From Candidatus Saccharimonadota bacterium (GTDB taxonomy: Bacteria; Pseudomonadota; Gammaproteobacteria; Enterobacterales; Enterobacteriaceae): a DNA stretch of 32,000 bases. Both the position numbers and the translations under genes were made by a program. How positions within the stretch are numbered: the stretch's first letter is position 1; every line of letters starts with the position of its first letter. Location of the stretch: positions 1-32,000 of the forward strand of contig NC_014909.2 of NCBI RefSeq assembly GCF_000185985.2, given 5' to 3'. A model generated the notes under the pieces. That model worked only from the letters and a program-made list of their open reading frames with translations, was not told where the DNA came from and did no database searches. This document shows, piece after piece, positions 10,719-24,288 of the stretch.

Positions 10719-12143
10719 TTATTTTCCAATGCAAAATGAACTAAAAATTTTTTTTAATAAATTATCAGGAGTAGATTTTCCAAATATTTTATTCAGTTCA
10801 TCGTGGGCGTATCTTAAATCTTCAGCAAAACGATCATTAATGATGGTTACTCCACAGTAGTAGTGGTTTAGTTGTTTTTGAGCAGATAATAGATATTGAT
10901 AAGCGTTTTTAATTATGTTCAAATGTCTTTGTCGAGCAATAAAATTGTTTTGATTTTCTTCAATAGAATGGGGTAGTGTATAATGTTGTATTTTATGTTT
11001 GGTATTGTTATAAAGATATTTTTTTAGTAAGTCTATTCCAGAGTTTAATAATGCAGATAAAGTTATGCATGTATATCCATTTATTATATAGATCCCGTTT
11101 TTTTCTAAACTTAAATCAGATTTGTTTCGTATAATTGTAATAGTCGTTTTTTTATTTATATTTGGAAGAGTTTTTTGTAAAGGAAGTAACATATCATCAT
11201 ATTTATTGGAGCAAGAACTAGAATCTACAACCCATAAAATGTGATCAGCTAATTTTAATTCATTTTTTGCGCGTTTTATTCCAATAAGTTCAATTTCATT
11301 AGTACTATGTTCTTGTAATCCTGCAGTATCCGTAATATGAAATGTTATCCCGTTTAATTGAATAGTTTCATATAAAGTATCCCGTGTAGTTCCAGGTATT
11401 GAACTAATAATAGCACGGTCAAGGTTTATGAGTGCATTAAATAAACTAGATTTTCCAGCATTAGGTTTTCCTGCGATTATTATTTTTATTCCATCTCGTA
11501 ATAAAGAGCCAGAATATGCTGATTTATATATTTTGTCTGTTTCTGTGATTATATTTTTCAGAATTTTTTTTATTTTGTTGTATGAGATAGTGTCAATGTC
11601 TTGATCTGAAAAATCAATAGTTGATTCAACATGCATACGACAATATATGATTTTATCTAAAATATTGTGAATTTGATTAGAGAAGAACCCTTGTAAAGAA
11701 TTGTATGCTGCCTTAGCGGCTTGATAGGAAGTAGCGTCAATAATATCAGCTATTGATTCAGCTTGAATAAGATCTATTTTGTTATTTAAAAATGCTCTTT
11801 CGGTGAATTCTCCAGGATTAGCTAGTCGTATTTTAGAAGATATTTCTAAAATACGACTTAATAATATATTTAATATTATATATCCTCCGTGCCCGTGTAT
11901 TTCTAATATATTTTCTCCTGTAAAGGAATGGGGTTTTGGGAAAAACAATGTAATTACTTTTTCTATTGTAGATCCTTGTTTATCTCGAAATGGTAAGTAT
12001 TCTGCTGTTCTAGGTTTAGGTACTTTTCCTAATAATTCTAAAGCAATTTCCGGTATTAATTCGCCGGATATACGTATAATTCCAATACCACCTCTTCCTA
12101 TTGGAGTAGAAATAGCAGCAATTGTATCAGAATAATATTTCAT
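10719..12143 (-). CDS. mnmE: tRNA modification GTPase MnmE (TrmE), 474 aa
   Basis: G-domain motifs GKPNAGKSS, DTAG and NKSD. The diagnostic C-terminal FCIGK is present. It lies downstream of yidC as in E. coli. Confidence 0.96.
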   Translation of the reverse strand: MKYYSDTIAAISTPIGRGGIGIIRISGELIPEIALELLGKVPKPRTAEYLPFRDKQGSTIEKVITLFFPKPHSFTGENILEIHGHGGYIILNILLSRILEISSKIRLANPGEFTERAFLNNKIDLIQAESIADIIDATSYQAAKAAYNSLQGFFSNQIHNILDKIIYCRMHVESTIDFSDQDIDTISYNKIKKILKNIITETDKIYKSAYSGSLLRDGIKIIIAGKPNAGKSSLFNALINLDRAIISSIPGTTRDTLYETIQLNGITFHITDTAGLQEHSTNEIELIGIKRAKNELKLADHILWVVDSSSCSNKYDDMLLPLQKTLPNINKKTTITIIRNKSDLSLEKNGIYIINGYTCITLSALLNSGIDLLKKYLYNNTKHKIQHYTLPHSIEENQNNFIARQRHLNIIKNAYQYLLSAQKQLNHYYCGVTIINDRFAEDLRYAHDELNKIFGKSTPDNLLKKIFSSFCIGK

Positions 12144-12247: not shown

Positions 12248-13936
12248 TTATGATCTATGTATGTTCATATTATTTTTTTTTGATAATCCATGGTAAATAA
12301 TGTGTTGTTGAATAATAGTAATAACGTTACTAATGATATAATATAACACCAATCCTGATGGAAACCATAGAAAAAATACAGTAAAAGCTGTTAACATAAT
12401 TGTCATGATTTTTTTTTGTGTTGGGTCAGTGATAGTGGTTGGGGCTAATTTTTGTATTAAAAGCATAGTTATGCCCATAATAATTGGTAAAATATAATAA
12501 GGATCTTGTGTAGATAAATCGTTAATCCATAGCATAAATTTGGCGTGTCTTAATTCAACTGAATTTGATAGCATATAATATAACGCTAAAAAAATTGGCA
12601 TTTGTATTAATAAAGGCAAACATCCTCCTAGTGGGTTAACTTTTTCTTTTTTGTATAGTTCTATAGTTTTTTGATGACATTGATATTTATTATGTTTATA
12701 TTTTTCTTGTATTAAAACAAGTTTTGGTTGTAACATACGCATTTTTGCCATAGAGGTATATTGCGCTTTTGTGAGGGGATACATAATAATTCGGATTATT
12801 ATTGTGATTAATATGATTGATACTCCCCAATTATTTATATAGTTGTGAATTAATTGTAATAATTTAAATAATGGTTGGGAAATAAACCAGAACCAGCCAT
12901 AATCAATAACTAAATTTAAATTTGGAGCTATTGTTGATTTAATATGGTCTTGAATTTTAGGTCCAATCCATAAAATTGTTTGAAATTCCTTTTTTTGTCC
13001 AGGTGGAATCTGTATCAAATCAGATTGAAATCCTATAGACATATAATGATCATCAATGTAAGTAGTGTGAAAAACGTTATTAACGGGGGTGATAGGTAAC
13101 CATGCTACTACGAAATATTTTTGTAATAATGCAACCCATCCTCCTATACTGTGAATATTTAAATTATTGTGCTTCATATCATTAAAGCTATATTTTTGAT
13201 ATTTTTCTTTATTGGTAGAGTATGCAGATCCTTCGTATTCGGAAGATAAGTATATTTTATTTTTATTATTTTTTAATGGAATCGGTAAGTAATATTGTGA
13301 TTGTACTAAATTGCCAAGTATTCTAGTATATATGGAATGAATACTAGTATTATCTATAGTATGATTTATGGTGATAAAGTAATTGTTTCTATGAAATAGG
13401 TATTGTTTAGTGTAAATAATACCGTTGGGGTCGTAATGCATTAAAGTAAATTGGAGTGTATTTTTGTTATTTTTAAGAATATATTTGTTTTGATTATTTA
13501 TATCAGTATATAAAAATTTTTTACATTGATTTTCTTCATTTGAAAGATTTGTGTTTGTTGTTAATTCGCTGTAAGTTTGGTATTGATATTTTTTTGATGA
13601 ATTTAATAATCGCAATGGTTGTTGAGAATTTAAATTGTCTAAATATTTTAGAAGATAAGCGTCTTCAATATTTCCTCCATATTTATTGATTTTTAATAAA
13701 AAAACATCGGTTTGCACTGTGATTATATCTTTATTTTCTGAATGAACAATATTTTTTTGTATGTTGTTTGGTGGTGTAGAAGATGATATTTTAGAATTTA
13801 GGTATGAATTTGTATAGTTATCTTTTAAATTATTTAAATGAGTTTTTTGATAGTAATGCTCAATTTCCCATGTTTGCCATAATATAAATGAAATGATTAA
13901 AAAAATTCCAATAAAAAAATTGCGTTGTGAATCCAT
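12248..13936 (-). CDS. yidC: Membrane protein insertase YidC, 562 aa counted from the internal ATG at 13936
   Basis: MDSQRNFFIGIFLIISFILWQTWE matches the E. coli YidC N-terminus [24 protein letters not shown]. It has a large periplasmic P1 domain followed by the conserved 5-TM core (GWFWFISQPLFKLL, GGCLPLLIQMPIFLALY). The track ORF extends upstream to 14200 because no stop separates it from yidD. Confidence 0.93.
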   Translation of the reverse strand: MDSQRNFFIGIFLIISFILWQTWEIEHYYQKTHLNNLKDNYTNSYLNSKISSSTPPNNIQKNIVHSENKDIITVQTDVFLLKINKYGGNIEDAYLLKYLDNLNSQQPLRLLNSSKKYQYQTYSELTTNTNLSNEENQCKKFLYTDINNQNKYILKNNKNTLQFTLMHYDPNGIIYTKQYLFHRNNYFITINHTIDNTSIHSIYTRILGNLVQSQYYLPIPLKNNKNKIYLSSEYEGSAYSTNKEKYQKYSFNDMKHNNLNIHSIGGWVALLQKYFVVAWLPITPVNNVFHTTYIDDHYMSIGFQSDLIQIPPGQKKEFQTILWIGPKIQDHIKSTIAPNLNLVIDYGWFWFISQPLFKLLQLIHNYINNWGVSIILITIIIRIIMYPLTKAQYTSMAKMRMLQPKLVLIQEKYKHNKYQCHQKTIELYKKEKVNPLGGCLPLLIQMPIFLALYYMLSNSVELRHAKFMLWINDLSTQDPYYILPIIMGITMLLIQKLAPTTITDPTQKKIMTIMLTAFTVFFLWFPSGLVLYYIISNVITIIQQHIIYHGLSKKNNMNIHRS

Positions 13937-14200
13937 ATTCACTATATCCTTAGTTTTTTCATGTTGAAAGGAGTGGTAATTTTTATTTTTTTTAAAATTT
14001 AAAGGGTGGCATTGTAAAATACGAATACATATTTTCCAAATACCTTTTAATATTCCAAATTGAAGTATGGAATTAATTCCGTATTGTGAACATGTTATGG
14101 AGAAACGGCAATGATGCCCTAATATAGGGCTAATTGTTATTTGGTATGCGCGTATTAACCATATTATTAATTTTGTTATTAGTATTCGTGTTGCTTCCAT
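13937..14200 (-). CDS. yidD: Membrane protein insertion efficiency factor YidD module, 88 codons, with no stop codon of its own, in frame with yidC
   Basis: LIRAYQITISPILGHHCRFSITCSQYGINSILQFGILKGIWKICIRILQCHP compares with E. coli YidD [52 protein letters not shown]. The start overlaps the rnpA 3' end by 22 nt in another frame. Confidence 0.8.
13947..13951 (-). promoter_or_regulatory. Shine-Dalgarno-like AAGGA 10 nt upstream of the internal yidC ATG
   Basis: The minus strand reads ctAAGGAtatagtgaatATGgattca. This could allow independent YidC initiation inside the yidD-yidC reading frame. A purine-rich pentamer in an AT-rich genome is weak evidence on its own. Confidence 0.35.
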
Positions 14201-14718: not shown

Positions 14719-14940
14719 ACATGTCACTATATCTTTAGTTGATATATACCTATATTTTTTAACTAAAACTTAATTATATAAAATAAAATTAAGAAAGTCA
14801 ATCATATTTCAATGAAAACCCTACTTCAAAAATAAATATTATTATATCATATTTATGATATGATAGTGTTTGTTATGTATGCGATCAAATAAATAACGGG
14901 CGTATATTAAGTTAAAAAACGATACTAATCAATCATAATT

Positions 14941-16407: not shown

Positions 16408-18846
<2,439 letters not shown>

Positions 18847-19081
18847 TACATTATTGAAAGAGAGTTTTTCTATATTAAAACAAAAATTCACCACAAAGTG
18901 TGAATGTTATCTTTGTATATTATGAGTCTTTATAATAGAGTACAGAGGAGGAATATCATAGTTACATAATAGTATAAATAAAAATTGTTAAACATATAGG
19001 TATATGTTAAAATGGGCTTTAGTAGTGTAAAGGTGGGGAGTGGTGTGTTTGATTTAAAATATATTTAGAAGAGAGGTTTTT

Positions 19082-19504
19082 ATGCATAATTTTGATTTTT
19101 CACCATTATATGGATCTGTTATAGGATTTGATAGATTAGTAAATTTTTTAGAGGTAGGGCAAAGTAATGGTAATTATCCTGCTTATAATGTTGAATTAGT
19201 TAGTGAACATAAATATTGCATTTCTATTGTAGTGGCTGGATTTTCAAGTGATGAATTAGATATTACTACTCATGATAATATGTTAATTGTAAAAGGTATT
19301 CACACTAGAAATGATAGTAATTCTAATTCAGATTCTAAGAATTATTTATATCAAGGAATTACTGATCATGATTTTGAAAGAAAATTCCAATTAGCTGAAC
19401 ATATTCAAATTACTGGAGCTAAATTAGATCGAGGTATTTTGTATATACATTTAACTAGAGTATTACCAGATATTCTTAAACCAAAGCATATAGAAATTAA
19501 GTAA
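19082..19504 (+). CDS. ibpA: Small heat shock protein IbpA (alpha-crystallin family), 140 aa
   Basis: The N-terminus [16 protein letters not shown] and NYPAYNVE resemble E. coli IbpA (FDLSPLYRSAIGFDRL, GYPPYNVE), followed by an alpha-crystallin domain. There is a single copy and no adjacent ibpB. Confidence 0.9.
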
Positions 19505-19623
19505 AAATATACTAATTTGCACTTTTTTAGCAGACTCAGCTATTGTATACTTCAGATTTTTCTGAAGTATACAATAGCTGAGTCTGCTAAAAAAGTGCAA
19601 ATTAGTATATTTTTACTTAATTT
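19494..19623. repeat. Perfect inverted repeat with 63-bp arms (19494-19556 and 19561-19623) and a 4-nt tttt centre, forming a potential 130-nt hairpin or cruciform. It is a candidate bidirectional terminator or RNA 3' stabiliser between convergent genes.
   Basis: I checked base by base. The reverse complement of aaattaagtaaaaatatactaatttgcacttttttagcagactcagctattgtatacttcaga equals tctgaagtatacaatagctgagtctgctaaaaaagtgcaaattagtatatttttacttaattt, 63/63. The left arm contains the final ibpA codons and the TAA. The repeat itself is certain; its function is not. Confidence 0.95.
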
Positions 19624-19720
19624 GTAATGTTATAACTAACAAATTTAGAAATTAATTTTAAAATTTATAAGTAATCGTTAAATTAAGATGTTTATAGATG
19701 TAGAAAAGTATGTTAAAGTA

Positions 19721-20731
19721 TTAAATTATATTTTTTAGTTGTAATTCTATTTTTAAATAAGCATAAAAAATGGGGGCCGCTATTAGTCCTTCTAGTCCAA
19801 AAATTGATTCTAAAAAAATCATAGCCAGAACTAATTCCCAGGTATGAGAATTTATTTTATTCCCAATGATTTCGGCATTTAAAAAGTATTCTAATTTATG
19901 AATTAAAATTAGATATATTAACATTGTTATTCCAATACTTAATGAAATGGATAAAGCTGAAATAGTTATCATAATATTAGAAATTAAATTTCCAACGATT
20001 GGTAATAATCCTAGAACAAAAGTAATAATAATTAAGGTTTTTCCTAATGGTAATGTTTCTCCAAATACTGGAATCAATATAAAAATCATGATAGATGTTA
20101 ACAGGGTATTAATTGAAGATATTTTTAATTGAGCAAATACTATATTATGAAATGCGTGAGATAAATTATATATTCGTTCTAATAATTGATTAGTAAAATA
20201 TGTATTGCTTTCTATATATTTTTTTTTATATTGAGGATAAGCAATCATTGCTCCAATTATTAATCCGATTAATAAAGTGATACATCCGTGTAAAATAACA
20301 TGTCCCATATTTCGAATTAGGATGATGTTTAATTCAATCCACGAAAATATTCGTTCTTTTAGTTCTGATGTTGTATTTGGAAAAAATTTTGGTAAAAAAT
20401 TAGGGAGTTTTTTTTTAAAGTCAGAAAAAATATGATTAATTTCATTCAACATATTAATTTTATTTGTATTTTCTGAAAAAAAATTAGTACAATTTGAGAT
20501 ACTTATTGCAATAGTAGAAATAAGAATAATAATTATTATTAAAATAGAAAGTTGACGTGCTCGATAGGTTCCTATAAATCGTTCAAAATATGTTGATAAA
20601 GATACGATAATTTCATAAGTTAAAAATCCTGAAAAAAAACAAGGAAATAACCCTAATGGAATAATCATAAGAATAGATGCAAACATTATTATATAAGAAA
20701 TTGCTGTAATCCAAGTTTTTATAGAAAACAT
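19721..20731 (-). CDS. Polytopic inner-membrane protein, probably of the AI-2E transporter / UPF0118 (PerM/YhhT/TqsA-like) family, 336 aa
   Basis: It has about 7-8 hydrophobic segments. The family-like motifs LGLLPIVGNLISN and FGLEGLIAAPIFYA lie near the C-terminus. The family assignment is from motif memory only, so the function is uncertain, but the ORF itself is solid (long, with no competing frame). Confidence 0.55.
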   Translation of the reverse strand: MFSIKTWITAISYIIMFASILMIIPLGLFPCFFSGFLTYEIIVSLSTYFERFIGTYRARQLSILIIIIILISTIAISISNCTNFFSENTNKINMLNEINHIFSDFKKKLPNFLPKFFPNTTSELKERIFSWIELNIILIRNMGHVILHGCITLLIGLIIGAMIAYPQYKKKYIESNTYFTNQLLERIYNLSHAFHNIVFAQLKISSINTLLTSIMIFILIPVFGETLPLGKTLIIITFVLGLLPIVGNLISNIMITISALSISLSIGITMLIYLILIHKLEYFLNAEIIGNKINSHTWELVLAMIFLESIFGLEGLIAAPIFYAYLKIELQLKNII

Positions 20732-21185
20732 TATAATTTTCCTAATATATAAATTATTTGTAATAATAAAGTATTTTAAGATAATTTTTATTATTAGTAT
20801 TTGGTATTTATAATTTATATAAATGTTTATATGGATAAAAAAGTATCTTTTTATATAAAAAAAAGAGTATAGTATATATTATACTAATAATTCAGTAGTA
20901 AATTATGTATAATATATACTATAAGATATATCAGTATTGTAGTATATGAAAATTTTACAATATAAACAATGTATTAATAGTAAGTGTTTTATTAATTTGA
21001 TTTTTTAAAAATTTATCAAAATAATGAGTAAGAATTTTTATATGATAATAGGGGTATAACAATAGTTGGAATTAATATAAACAAAAAGTTTGTATTGAGA
21101 TACATAATATCATTGTATTTCATAATTTTCAGCGTATGTTCAATATGTATAAATATATTAATACATTATTAGTGATTTGGTTAAT

Positions 21186-22124
21186 ATGCAACAACAGTAT
21201 TATGATGTTAATGTCAAAACTATACAAGATTTAATAATGGATTTAGAAAAGTTTTGGATACATAATGGATGTATTATAGTGCCATCGCTAGATATGGAAA
21301 TTGGTGCAGCAACGTCTCATCCTATTACTTTTTTTAAAGCTATTGGTCCAGAACCAGTAGCTGCGGCTTATGTACAAGCATCTCGTCGTCCTGCTGATAG
21401 CAGATATGCAAAAAATCCAAGTAGGTTACAGAAATATTATCAATTTCAAGTGATTATAAAACCATCTCCTGAAAATATGTCACAATTATATTTAAATTCT
21501 TTAAAAGCAATTGGAATAAGTGAATCAGAAAATGATATCAGATTTATTGAAGATAATTGGGAAAATCCTACGTTGGGAGCATATGGGTTAGGATGGGAAG
21601 TGTGGTTAAATGGAATGGAAATAACTCAACTTACTTATTTTCAAAGAATGGGGGGATTAGAATGTTTTCCGATTACTGGAGAAATAACTTATGGATTAGA
21701 AAGATTAGCGTTATTTCTTCAAGATATGGATAATATATACGATTTAATTTGGGGCAATACTATAACTGGTGATATTACGTATAAAGACTTATATTATCAA
21801 AATGAATTAGAACAATCTAGTTATAATTTTAAATATGTTAATGTTAGTTATTTATTTCAGAATTTTAATGAATATGAAAATGAGATAAACTATTTACTTT
21901 CTTTAGATGAACCGTTAATAGTTCCATCTTATGAGTTAATTTTAAAATTAATACATATTTTTAATTTATTAGATGCAAGAAAAGTTATTTCTGTTACAGA
22001 GCGTAAAAATTATATTTTACGCATTCAAAGGTTATCACATATGGTAGCAGAAATGTATTATTTTTTTCGTAAAAAAATAGGATTCCCTTTATGTGCGAAC
22101 AAAACGAATAATATAATCGAATAA
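21186..22124 (+). CDS. glyQ: Glycine--tRNA ligase alpha subunit, 312 aa
   Basis: SHPxTFxxAxGPEPxAAAYVQxSRRPxDxRY, NPxRLQxYYQFQVxIKPSP, and [37 protein letters not shown] are near-identical to E. coli GlyQ. I preferred ATG 21186 (MQQQYY) over the track's TTG 21177. Confidence 0.95.
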
Positions 22125-24235: not shown

Positions 24236-24288
24236 GTCATTTTAATGCTTAAAACTTAAGCAATGGGCAAATTATTTAAGAAACTTTT

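What the first reader, a model, noticed from the sequence alone, without database searches (positions are those of the whole stretch)
19494..19623. Perfect 63-bp inverted repeat (130-nt hairpin/cruciform) that begins inside the last codons of ibpA
Bases 19494-19556 are the exact reverse complement of 19561-19623, 63/63 with no mismatch or indel, around a 4-nt tttt centre. The left arm contains the last three sense codons and the TAA of ibpA, so the right arm is an inverted copy of the ibpA 3' end plus 52 nt of spacer.

In spacer DNA this AT-rich, a chance complementary match is roughly 0.37 per base, so 63 in a row cannot be chance. The next-longest spacer inverted repeat I found is 13 bp. The stem is several-fold longer than an intrinsic terminator stem, and neither side has a clean U tract.

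Long perfect palindromes are unstable in E. coli (SbcCD cleavage, slipped replication) and should decay fast in a mutation-prone, AT-biased endosymbiont. Perfect identity therefore suggests one of three things:
- a very recent fold-back or template-switch duplication;
- maintenance by selection, for example as a bidirectional terminator between the convergent ibpA and permease genes, or as a 3' stabiliser of the ibpA mRNA. More speculatively, it could be a cruciform or ssDNA hairpin used as a protein-binding or priming site in a genome with no dnaA at its canonical locus 4.8 kb away;
- an assembly or whole-genome-amplification fold-back artefact.
Basis: partly seen in the sequence, partly recalled or inferred. 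Interest (0 to 1): 0.8.

Follow-up and report, generated by a model that had tools for sequence, protein, structure and literature searches.

The report
Known giant palindrome after ibpA
The 63-bp perfect inverted repeat is real, but it is almost certainly the longest of the "long palindromes" already reported for the Blochmannia vafer genome: an over-grown version of a hairpin found after the heat-shock gene ibpA in related ant symbionts, probably made by a replication copying slip.

Summary
Bases 19494-19556 are the exact reverse complement of 19561-19623 (63/63, TTTT centre). With one mismatch the arms reach 66 nt, giving 136 bp in total.

The window is Candidatus Blochmannia vafer BVAF. 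The genome paper (PMC3017870) already counted ten long palindromes of 64-136 bp; this one matches the 136-bp maximum. That genome was sequenced without whole-genome amplification, from 100-nt Illumina reads at 542x, so an artefact is unlikely.

- **Which arm is the copy.** The IbpA C-terminus (...IEIK) is conserved, so the left arm is ancestral and the right arm is the inverted copy.
- **Relatives.** None of 11 other Blochmannia lineages has this palindrome. All 9 Camponotus-type lineages have a significantly stable hairpin of unrelated sequence in the same spacer. One has a 27-bp perfect palindrome abutting the ibpA stop.
- **Tolerance.** sbcCD and recA are absent; rho, nusA and rnc are present.
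- **Origin ruled out.** GC skew does not switch here.

Best reading: this is a transcript-end hairpin between convergent genes, expanded and made perfect by replication template switching. The class is already known, and selection for the extra length is unproven.

The parts
19082..19504 (+). ibpA (BVAF_017), small heat-shock protein. Its last 11 nt (AAATTAAGTAA, including the TAA stop) form the outer end of the left arm.
   Evidence: ORF. Pfam HSP20. 100% identical to B. vafer BVAF IbpA. C-terminus ...IEIK conserved across Blochmannia and Sodalis.
19494..19556 (.). Left arm (63 nt): the ancestral template, made of the ibpA 3' end plus 52 nt of spacer.
   Evidence: Judged ancestral because it carries the conserved coding end.
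19557..19560 (.). Centre or loop, TTTT (UUUU in the ibpA-sense RNA, AAAA in the perM-sense RNA).
19561..19623 (.). Right arm (63 nt): the derived, perfect inverted copy of the left arm, including an inverted copy of the ibpA stop region.
   Evidence: 63/63. Single-copy in the window. Absent from relatives.
19491..19626 (.). Extended palindrome: 66-nt arms with one mismatch, 136 bp in total. This equals the maximum palindrome length published for B. vafer.
   Evidence: Published range of 64-136 bp (PMC3017870).
19503..19507 (.). A5 run in the left arm, partner of the T5 run. Together they flank an inner 49-bp stem in an A-tract/stem/U-tract layout that reads the same on both strands.
Evidence: Read directly from the sequence.
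19610..19614 (.). T5 run in the right arm. It is the only U-tract candidate 3' of the inner 49-bp stem, in either transcription direction.
   Evidence: Read directly from the sequence. The consensus terminator scan found no site.
19721..20731 (-). Convergent AI-2E/PerM-family transporter gene (BVAF_018). Its stop lies 97 nt from the right arm.
   Evidence: ORF. Pfam PF01594. Ortholog table.

Best explanation
This is a genuine, single-copy, lineage-specific long palindrome in the Blochmannia vafer chromosome. It is almost certainly the 136-bp maximum in the census of long palindromes published with the genome.

**What it does (inferred).** A stable hairpin sits in the ibpA/perM convergent spacer in every Camponotus-type Blochmannia sampled. 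The palindrome is B. vafer's version of that hairpin. Transcribed from either strand, it gives the same hairpin of about -100 kcal/mol. It therefore most likely serves as the transcript-end structure, either a terminator or a 3'-protective hairpin, between the two convergent genes.

**How it arose (inferred).**
- During replication the nascent strand switched template at a pre-existing short or imperfect inverted repeat.
- It then copied the opposite arm.
- In one or a few events this wrote a perfect inverted copy of the ibpA stop region plus 52 nt of spacer.

**Why it persists.** Blochmannia lacks SbcCD, the nuclease that attacks hairpins and cruciforms in E. coli. It also lacks RecA.

**Length and perfection.** These most likely reflect the mutational mechanism and a young age, or repeated homogenisation of the arms. 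Selection for 63 bp is not required to explain them.

**What is shown.**
- The existence of the palindrome.
- The direction of copying.
- Its absence in relatives.
- The conserved hairpin position.
- The gene content, taken from the paper.

The template-switch event itself and the termination or stabilisation role are inferred.
For: **The palindrome is real and not by chance.** 63/63 perfect arms; fold z = -20.

**It matches a published class.**
- The organism is B. vafer BVAF.
- PMC3017870 reports 10 long palindromes in B. vafer, 64-136 bp, four of them at least 100 bp, and nearly all intergenic.
- 66 + 4 + 66 = 136.

**It is unlikely to be an artefact.**
- Phenol-extracted genomic DNA with no amplification step, 100-nt paired reads, 542x coverage, consensus recalled from all reads.
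- tolA is BVAF_339 of 631 features, at roughly 388 kb. The Velvet contigs were 42, 119 and 561 kb.
- With that spacing, no assembly gap can lie at 19.5 kb (inference).

**Direction of copying.** IbpA ends ...IEIK in all Blochmannia and in Sodalis.

**The long form is derived.** It is absent from 11 other lineages.

**The hairpin position is conserved.**
- Best-hairpin z-scores run from -3.3 to -15 in 9 of 9 Camponotus-type spacers, with unrelated sequences.
- One of these (L016) has a 27-bp perfect palindrome, or 32 nt at 97%, overlapping the ibpA stop.
- In 36 control spacers from 4 genomes, z < -3 occurs in 7 of 14 convergent spacers.
- The same threshold is reached in only 1 of 12 tandem and 1 of 10 divergent spacers.
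- The ibpA/perM spacer reaches it in 4 of 4 genomes.

**Tolerance.** The ortholog table has sbcB but no sbcC, sbcD, recA or mutS. It does have recBCD, polA, rho, nusA, rnc and pnp.

**Mechanism precedent.** Template switching creates perfect hairpins, and homogenises and expands inverted-repeat arms (PMC8794818, PMC5453318, PMC13100816, abstracts).
Against: - No read-level data could be inspected here, and no second assembly of B. vafer exists in the collections searched.
- No close outgroup exists. BVAF PerM is only 68-74% identical to every other lineage. The pre-switch sequence cannot be reconstructed and the event cannot be dated.
- Canonical intrinsic-terminator criteria are not met. The stem is 25% GC, the base of the stem is AU-rich, and the T5 run lies inside the outer stem. 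The consensus scan found 0 sites here.
- The same scan found a site in only 1 of 6 relatives, and that one faces the perM direction.
- Two Colobopsis-type Blochmannia lack a significant hairpin in this spacer.
- Four other convergent spacers in the B. vafer window have weak hairpins or none.
- RNase III (rnc) is present. It should cleave a 63-bp perfect RNA duplex, which could destabilise the ibpA mRNA rather than protect it.
Confidence: 0.55

Rival explanations
1. Neutral by-product. A recent template-switch or fold-back duplication that does nothing useful. It sits in a convergent spacer simply because it is harmless there and nothing (no SbcCD) removes it. Termination is left to Rho or is unimportant.
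For: - The long form is unique to B. vafer.
- Perfect arms imply less than about 5% arm divergence (95% bound, -ln 0.05 / 63), which means young or homogenised.
- rho is present and highly conserved.
- Other B. vafer convergent spacers have no notable hairpin.
- Canonical terminator features are missing.
- One of the four >100-nt palindromes carries 3 variants between two genotypes that differ by only 419 variants genome-wide. This suggests rapid turnover.
Against: - A significant hairpin occupies this very spacer in 9 of 9 Camponotus-type lineages, with different sequences.
- Divergent and tandem control spacers mostly have none.
- No other hairpin remains in the B. vafer spacer to do the job.
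Confidence: 0.22
2. The length and perfection are themselves maintained by selection. One version is length-for-GC compensation of a bidirectional terminator in a 20%-GC spacer. Others are an RNase III processing or regulatory site, or a temperature-sensitive 3' structure on the heat-shock ibpA mRNA. This is essentially the genome authors' suggestion that such palindromes would decay without selection.
For: - Authors' argument in PMC3017870.
- A second lineage (L016) independently has a 27-32-nt near-perfect, AT-rich palindrome touching the ibpA stop.
- rnc is present.
- The A5/T5 flanks give a symmetric A-tract/stem/U-tract layout.
Against: - There is no conservation of the long form in any relative.
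- Stems of 9-21 bp evidently suffice in the other lineages.
- Pairing of the ibpA stop region is not significantly conserved across lineages (Fisher p = 0.05-0.08).
- Perfection is equally explained by template-switch homogenisation.
Confidence: 0.12
3. Assembly or library artefact. A fold-back chimera or a de Bruijn graph 'bounce' inserted a spurious inverted copy.
For: - The arms (63 nt) exceed the Velvet k-mer (49).
- Palindromes broke the assembly at two other sites and blocked Sanger reads.
- No independent assembly of this strain was found.
- No single 100-nt read can span all 130 nt.
Against: - No amplification of genomic DNA was used.
- The full read set was re-aligned at 542x and the consensus recalled by eye.
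- A 100-nt read can span flank + arm + loop, so both novel junctions are testable and were covered.
- The site is internal, with unique, syntenic flanks.
- It is not at a Velvet gap.
- Long palindromes also occur in the Sanger-era B. floridanus and B. pennsylvanicus genomes and in an independent Logan assembly (L016).
Confidence: 0.05
4. A member of a dispersed palindromic repeat family (REP, BIME, ERIC or MITE-like), or a remnant of a mobile element.
For: The shape resembles such elements: an extragenic palindrome at a gene 3' end.
Against: - Only the two arms match in the 32-kb window, even allowing 3 mismatches.
- No match in 12 relatives' loci or in JGI metagenomes.
- One arm is ordinary local sequence that includes the ibpA coding end.
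- Rfam gives only sub-threshold matches to microRNA-precursor models.
Confidence: 0.03
5. A DNA-level replication element: a cruciform or single-strand hairpin used for initiation or priming in a genome without dnaA.
For: - dnaA is absent from the rpmH-dnaN locus.
- The DNA hairpin is very stable.
Against: - GC skew is uniformly positive (+0.13 to +0.36) across all 32 kb, with no switch at 19.5 kb.
- The published skew switch lies between yibN and hldD, about 32 kb upstream of gidA.
- The palindrome is absent from B. floridanus, which also lacks dnaA at this locus.
Confidence: 0.01

Closest known systems
Long intergenic palindromes of Blochmannia genomes (Williams & Wernegreen 2010, BMC Genomics 11:687, PMC3017870)
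   Same: Same genome. It meets the paper's search criteria: arms of at least 30 bp, gap of 20 nt or less, no more than 3 mismatches, and at least partly intergenic. Its 136-bp extent equals the reported B. vafer maximum. It is one of the 'four exceptionally long' palindromes of at least 100 bp.
   Different: The paper gives counts and length ranges only, with no coordinates in the text held here. It does not describe the overlap with the ibpA stop, which arm is the copy, or the orthologous hairpins. It proposes selection without considering template switching or the absence of sbcCD.
Template-switch mutations, quasipalindrome correction and inverted-repeat expansion (PMC5453318, PMC8794818, PMC13100816; classically Ripley 1982, from my own knowledge)
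   Same: A perfect inverted copy of directly adjacent sequence across a short loop. One arm is demonstrably the template. The process is RecA-independent. The known outcome is to create, homogenise and lengthen hairpin arms in a single step.
   Different: At 63 nt copied, this is at the long end of what is usually described. The ancestral state cannot be reconstructed because no close outgroup is available.
Intrinsic (Rho-independent) bidirectional terminators between convergent genes
   Same: It lies between two convergent genes. The hairpin is identical in both transcripts. A5 and T5 runs flank an inner 49-bp stem. Orthologous spacers carry hairpins, often with U-rich tails.
   Different: The stem is 63 bp and 25% GC, against the usual 5-14 bp and GC-rich. 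There is no U-tract directly after the full stem. The consensus scan is negative. No transcript data exist.
REP/BIME-type 3' hairpins that protect mRNA from 3' exonucleases (E. coli; from my own knowledge)
   Same: An extragenic palindrome at a gene 3' end. pnp is present in B. vafer.
   Different: It is single-copy rather than a dispersed family. It is far longer. It would also be an RNase III substrate.
Engineered long palindromes in E. coli that are cleaved by SbcCD (PMC4245961, PMC3315005)
   Same: A long perfect palindrome with a tiny centre, able to form hairpins on either strand during replication.
   Different: The host here has no sbcC or sbcD, so the instability seen in E. coli is not expected.

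Membership tests
Blochmannia long palindromes (census of PMC3017870) | Inverted-repeat arms of at least 30 bp, with no more than 3 mismatches and a gap of 20 nt or less (EMBOSS palindrome settings) | tested here: met
   Arms of 63 nt with no mismatch, or 66 nt with 1 mismatch, and a 4-nt gap. It is the only such palindrome in the 32-kb window.
Blochmannia long palindromes (census of PMC3017870) | Located at least partly in an intergenic spacer of a Blochmannia genome | tested here: met
   119 of 130 nt lie in the ibpA/BVAF_018 spacer. The organism is B. vafer BVAF.
Blochmannia long palindromes (census of PMC3017870) | Identity with a specific listed palindrome | tested here: inconclusive
   No coordinate list is held. 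The 136-bp extent equals the published maximum, which is strong circumstantial evidence but not proof.
Template-switch (fold-back) inverted duplication | A perfect inverted copy of immediately adjacent sequence, with one arm identifiable as the template | tested here: met
   63/63. The left arm carries the conserved ibpA coding end.
Template-switch (fold-back) inverted duplication | A derived state that is absent from related lineages | tested here: met
   No long palindrome of this sequence in 11 other Blochmannia lineages.
Template-switch (fold-back) inverted duplication | The ancestral sequence is recoverable from an outgroup, and a single switch event explains the difference | not testable with these tools
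   The closest relatives are 68-74% identical in PerM. The spacers are unalignable beyond about 15 nt.
Intrinsic bidirectional terminator | Positioned downstream of the stop codon or codons, between convergent genes | tested here: met
Intrinsic bidirectional terminator | A short GC-rich stem-loop followed at once by a U-tract (and preceded by an A-tract for bidirectionality) | tested here: not met
   The consensus scan found 0 sites in 18800-21200. The stem is 25% GC. Only a nested reading (49-bp stem plus T5, with A5 upstream) resembles the layout.
Intrinsic bidirectional terminator | Transcript 3' ends map to the hairpin | not testable with these tools
   No transcriptome data are available.
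Intrinsic bidirectional terminator | A structural element conserved at the orthologous position | tested here: met
   9 of 9 Camponotus-type spacers have a hairpin with z of -3.3 or lower. 2 of 2 Colobopsis-type do not.
Dispersed palindromic repeats (REP/ERIC/MITE) | Multiple dispersed copies | tested here: not met
   No further copy in the window, in relatives' loci or in metagenomes. The remaining 690 kb of the genome could not be searched.
Assembly or amplification fold-back artefact | Amplified DNA, low coverage, or a position at a contig end or gap | tested here: not met
   Methods of PMC3017870. Gap geometry against the position of tolA. The reads themselves were not inspected.
Replication origin | GC-skew switch at the site | tested here: not met
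   Skew is positive throughout the window. The published origin is about 51 kb away.

The most novel reading that the evidence does not exclude
Camponotus-type Blochmannia may keep a strong hairpin at the 3' end of the heat-shock gene ibpA under selection. In these SbcCD-less, extremely AT-rich genomes the stem would be repeatedly rebuilt, lengthened and kept perfect by replication template switching. Long perfect palindromes (63 bp in B. vafer, 27 bp in the L016 lineage) would then be a 'length-for-GC' solution for transcript-end or RNase III-processed structures. On this reading they are mutation-driven but functionally retained elements, not accidents.
Probability: 0.2. Interest if true: 0.5.

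Novelty: already known. Interest (0 to 1): 0.3.

Why it matters
A 63-bp perfect palindrome would be remarkable in E. coli. In Blochmannia it belongs to a class documented since 2010, so it is not a discovery in itself.

What this analysis adds is modest.
- It shows which arm is the copy.
- It shows that the long form is lineage-specific while a hairpin at this spacer is conserved in Camponotus-type lineages.
- It finds that a second lineage independently carries a long perfect palindrome at the ibpA stop.
- It notes that the absence of sbcCD and recA removes the expected instability.

Together these points offer a mutational explanation (template switching) as an alternative to the published argument that selection must maintain such palindromes. 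If followed up genome-wide, Blochmannia could be a natural system for studying how template switching builds and renews RNA hairpins when the hairpin nuclease is missing.

Tried and rejected
- **Looking up the B. vafer locus itself.** The look-up of encoding contigs failed twice. The single genome-contig scan returned B. floridanus but not B. vafer. The rest of the genome, including the other nine palindromes and any whole-genome copy count, could not be examined.
- **Metagenome scan with the arm core.** No hits.
- **MAFFT alignment of six orthologous spacers.** Only the flanking coding ends align. No ancestral state could be recovered.
- **Is pairing of the ibpA stop region conserved?**
  - The repeat finder suggested arms reaching into the last ibpA codons in L015 (31 nt, 84%) and L016 (32 nt, 97%).
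  - A pair-probability test against shuffled spacers was not significant outside B. vafer (Fisher p = 0.053 for all lineages, 0.082 for Camponotus-type).
  - I treat this as inconclusive.
- **Possible homology of the B. vafer and L016 arms.** They share the 8-mer ATTGTATA next to the loop. My rough estimate of the chance probability is 0.05-0.1, so I make no claim.
- **Direct-repeat-like match.** 19479-19507 matches 19634-19662 at 72%. I judge this to be chance in AT-rich DNA. It cannot date from the same event as the perfect arms.
- **Rfam.** Only sub-threshold hits to microRNA-precursor models and a Wolbachia sRNA, reflecting shape alone.
- **Consensus terminator scans.** 0 sites in B. vafer and 1 of 6 relatives. 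I do not file the element as a canonical intrinsic terminator.
- **The 45-aa ORF on the minus strand across the palindrome (19463-19600).** A mirror effect of the repeat, not a gene.
Full report
**Observation.** The inverted repeat is exactly as described.
- Bases 19494-19556 are the perfect reverse complement of 19561-19623 (63/63) around a TTTT centre.
- With one mismatch the arms reach 66 nt (19491-19626, 136 bp).
- The left arm overlaps the last 11 nt of ibpA (ORF 19082-19504), including the TAA stop.
- At 27% GC, chance complementarity is about 0.3 per base, so this cannot be chance.
- The next longest perfect short-loop inverted repeat in the 32 kb is 15 bp.
- As RNA the region folds at -102.6 kcal/mol (z = -20.5). 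The other strand gives the same hairpin. As DNA it folds at -69.9 kcal/mol (z = -21.5).
- Pfam confirms HSP20 for ibpA, an AI-2E/PerM-type transporter on the convergent strand, and GyrB, DnaN, GlyQ and MnmG.
- No dnaA lies between rpmH and dnaN.

**Source and prior knowledge.** IbpA is 100% identical to that of Candidatus Blochmannia (Blochmanniella) vafer str. BVAF. The window starts at the ATG of mnmG/gidA, which is BVAF_001.

The genome paper (Williams & Wernegreen 2010, PMC3017870) already searched for long palindromes.
- Its settings were arms of at least 30 bp, a gap of 20 nt or less, and no more than 3 mismatches.
- It reported 10 in B. vafer, 64-136 bp long, four of them at least 100 bp.
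- It reported 20 in B. floridanus and 6 in B. pennsylvanicus, nearly all intergenic.
- It suggested roles in transcription control or mRNA stabilisation, and argued that the palindromes would decay without selection.
- Under those settings the element here measures 66 + 4 + 66 = 136 bp, the published maximum.

A follow-up paper (PMC3268670) mentions 'only four' palindromes over 100 nt. One of them carries three variants between two co-resident genotypes that differ by only 419 variants genome-wide, and it shows a coverage dip. Which palindrome that is cannot be told from the text held.

**Artefact?** This is unlikely.
- The DNA was phenol-extracted from purified symbiont cells, with no whole-genome amplification.
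- It was sequenced as 100-nt paired Illumina reads and assembled with Velvet (k = 49).
- The full read set was then re-aligned and the consensus recalled, at 542x.
- Two Velvet gaps were at palindromes and were closed by hand.
- The three contigs were 42, 119 and 561 kb, and one gap was in tolA. tolA is BVAF_339 of 631 features, at roughly 388 kb.
- With that spacing no gap can lie at 19.5 kb. This palindrome was therefore assembled straight through (my inference).
- A 100-nt read can cover flank + 63-nt arm + loop, so both junctions are verifiable.
- I could not inspect reads, and no independent assembly of the strain exists in the collections.

**Which arm is the copy?** IbpA ends ...IEIK in every Blochmannia examined and in Sodalis. 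The left arm, which contains AAATTAAGTAA, is therefore ancestral. The right arm is a derived inverted copy of the ibpA end plus 52 nt of spacer.

**Comparative evidence.** I retrieved the ibpA/perM spacer from 11 other Blochmannia lineages:
- B. floridanus (L001);
- the Camponotus sp. C-003 symbiont (L008-L010);
- B. ocreatus (L011);
- the Colobopsis obliquus symbiont (L013) and the C. nipponica symbiont (L014);
- six Logan assemblies (L006/L007, L012, L015, L016, L017, L018/L019).

B. vafer is about equally distant from all Camponotus-type lineages (PerM 68-74% identity), so there is no close outgroup.

Three findings follow.
- None of them has this palindrome or its sequence.
- All 9 Camponotus-type spacers contain a hairpin far more stable than dinucleotide shuffles, with z from -3.3 to -15 and unrelated sequences. 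Stems range from about 9 to 28 bp.
- L016 has a 27-bp perfect palindrome (32 nt at 97%) that overlaps the ibpA stop codon and is followed by a U-rich tail.

The two Colobopsis-type spacers show no significant local hairpin.

As a control I scored 36 spacers in four genomes. Hairpins with z < -3 occur in 7 of 14 convergent spacers. They occur in only 1 of 12 tandem and 1 of 10 divergent spacers. Among the convergent spacers, ibpA/perM scores 4 of 4 genomes and glyS/sodA 3 of 4.

A stable hairpin is therefore a specific, conserved feature of this convergent spacer. The B. vafer palindrome is its extreme form.

**Function.** Because the arms are perfect, transcripts from either strand carry the same hairpin. 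An A5 run (19503-19507) and a T5 run (19610-19614) flank an inner 49-bp stem. This is the A-tract/stem/U-tract layout of a bidirectional terminator.

There are caveats.
- The stem is 25% GC and its base is AU-rich.
- The consensus scan finds nothing here, and a site in only 1 of 6 relatives.
- rho and nusA are present.
- rnc (RNase III) and pnp are present, so a 63-bp duplex would probably be cleaved.

I therefore infer a transcript-end role (termination and/or 3' structure). I do not file the element as a canonical intrinsic terminator.

**Origin and persistence.** The published ortholog table lists sbcB but no sbcC or sbcD. It lists no recA and no mutS, while recBCD and polA are present. Without SbcCD, the E. 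coli pathway that attacks long palindromes (PMC4245961, PMC3315005) is missing. Without RecA, a replication-based mechanism is the natural source.

Template switching is known to create perfect hairpins in one step, and to homogenise and expand inverted-repeat arms (PMC8794818, PMC5453318, PMC13100816).

Sixty-three perfect pairs imply less than about 5% divergence between the arms (95% bound). The event is therefore recent relative to the deep splits between Blochmannia lineages, or the arms are repeatedly homogenised. Either way, perfection alone is not evidence of selection. That is the point on which I differ from the published argument.

**Rejected alternatives.**
- Replication origin: GC skew is positive across the whole window, and the published skew switch is about 32 kb upstream of gidA.
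- Dispersed repeat: the arm is single-copy in the window. It is absent from relatives and from metagenomes.
- Known RNA family: only sub-threshold microRNA-precursor look-alikes.
- Conserved sequestration of the ibpA stop codon: suggestive in L015 and L016 but not significant overall.

**Verdict.** This is a real and striking structure, but it belongs to an already published class in this very genome and most likely is its longest member.

The best mechanistic reading has three parts:
- it is a conserved transcript-end hairpin;
- it was enlarged by template switching;
- it is tolerated because SbcCD is absent.

That reading is plausible and testable, but the functional part is inferred. Interest is moderate to low.

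Noticed in passing
L016:2407-2480 (Logan SRR32934590 contig _3671): A second long palindrome at the same place in another Blochmannia lineage. It has 27-bp perfect arms (32 nt at 97%), a 10-nt loop, a left arm overlapping the ibpA TAA stop, and a U-rich tail. Its sequence is unrelated to the B. vafer arms apart from a shared ATTGTATA next to the loop.
   Followed up: partly
L015:3401-3491: An inverted repeat with 31-nt arms at 84% complementarity. Its core is an 18-bp perfect stem with a 27-nt loop. The left arm starts at the same ibpA position (AAATTAAATAA) as in B. vafer. The test for conserved pairing of the stop region was not significant.
   Followed up: yes
window 24236-24288; L008:15020-15190; L011:14952-15080; L012:14898-15020: The glyS/sodA convergent spacer carries a strong hairpin in three relatives (z -3.3 to -6.5; a 21-bp inverted repeat in L008) but only a weak one in B. 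vafer (z -1.5). It is a second conserved hairpin site, apparently eroded in B. vafer.
   Followed up: partly
window 14719-14940 (inverted repeat at 14834-14871): The rpmH/dnaN divergent spacer, where dnaA would normally sit. dnaA is absent. B. vafer alone shows a significant AT-rich hairpin here (z -3.9; 18-nt arms with 3 mismatches). The three relatives scored about z -0.3.
   Followed up: no
window 12248-14200 (- strand): A 650-aa ORF combines a YidD domain with YidC domains (Pfam). This is a yidD-yidC fusion. The genome paper's ortholog table also notes it.
   Followed up: partly
window 11824-11858: A 15-bp perfect inverted repeat (22 nt with 3 mismatches, 5-nt loop) inside the mnmE/trmE coding region. 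It is the second-longest perfect short-loop inverted repeat in the window.
   Followed up: no
window 1-32000: GC skew is strongly and uniformly positive (+0.13 to +0.36) with G well above C (5399 against 3262). The whole window lies on one replichore, with the + strand as leading strand.
   Followed up: yes
L006:443-2858 (Logan SRR31046795): gyrB is called as three consecutive ORFs (470, 170 and 146 aa) in this Logan assembly. This indicates frameshifts, either real (homopolymer slippage, common in Blochmannia) or assembly errors.
   Followed up: no
window 19479-19507 and 19634-19662: A 29-nt direct-repeat-like match (72%) between the ibpA 3' end and the sequence just beyond the right arm. It is probably chance in AT-rich DNA.
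   Followed up: partly
window 19463-19600 (- strand): A 45-aa TTG-start ORF runs through the palindrome. It is a mirror effect of the repeat and not a credible gene.
   Followed up: no
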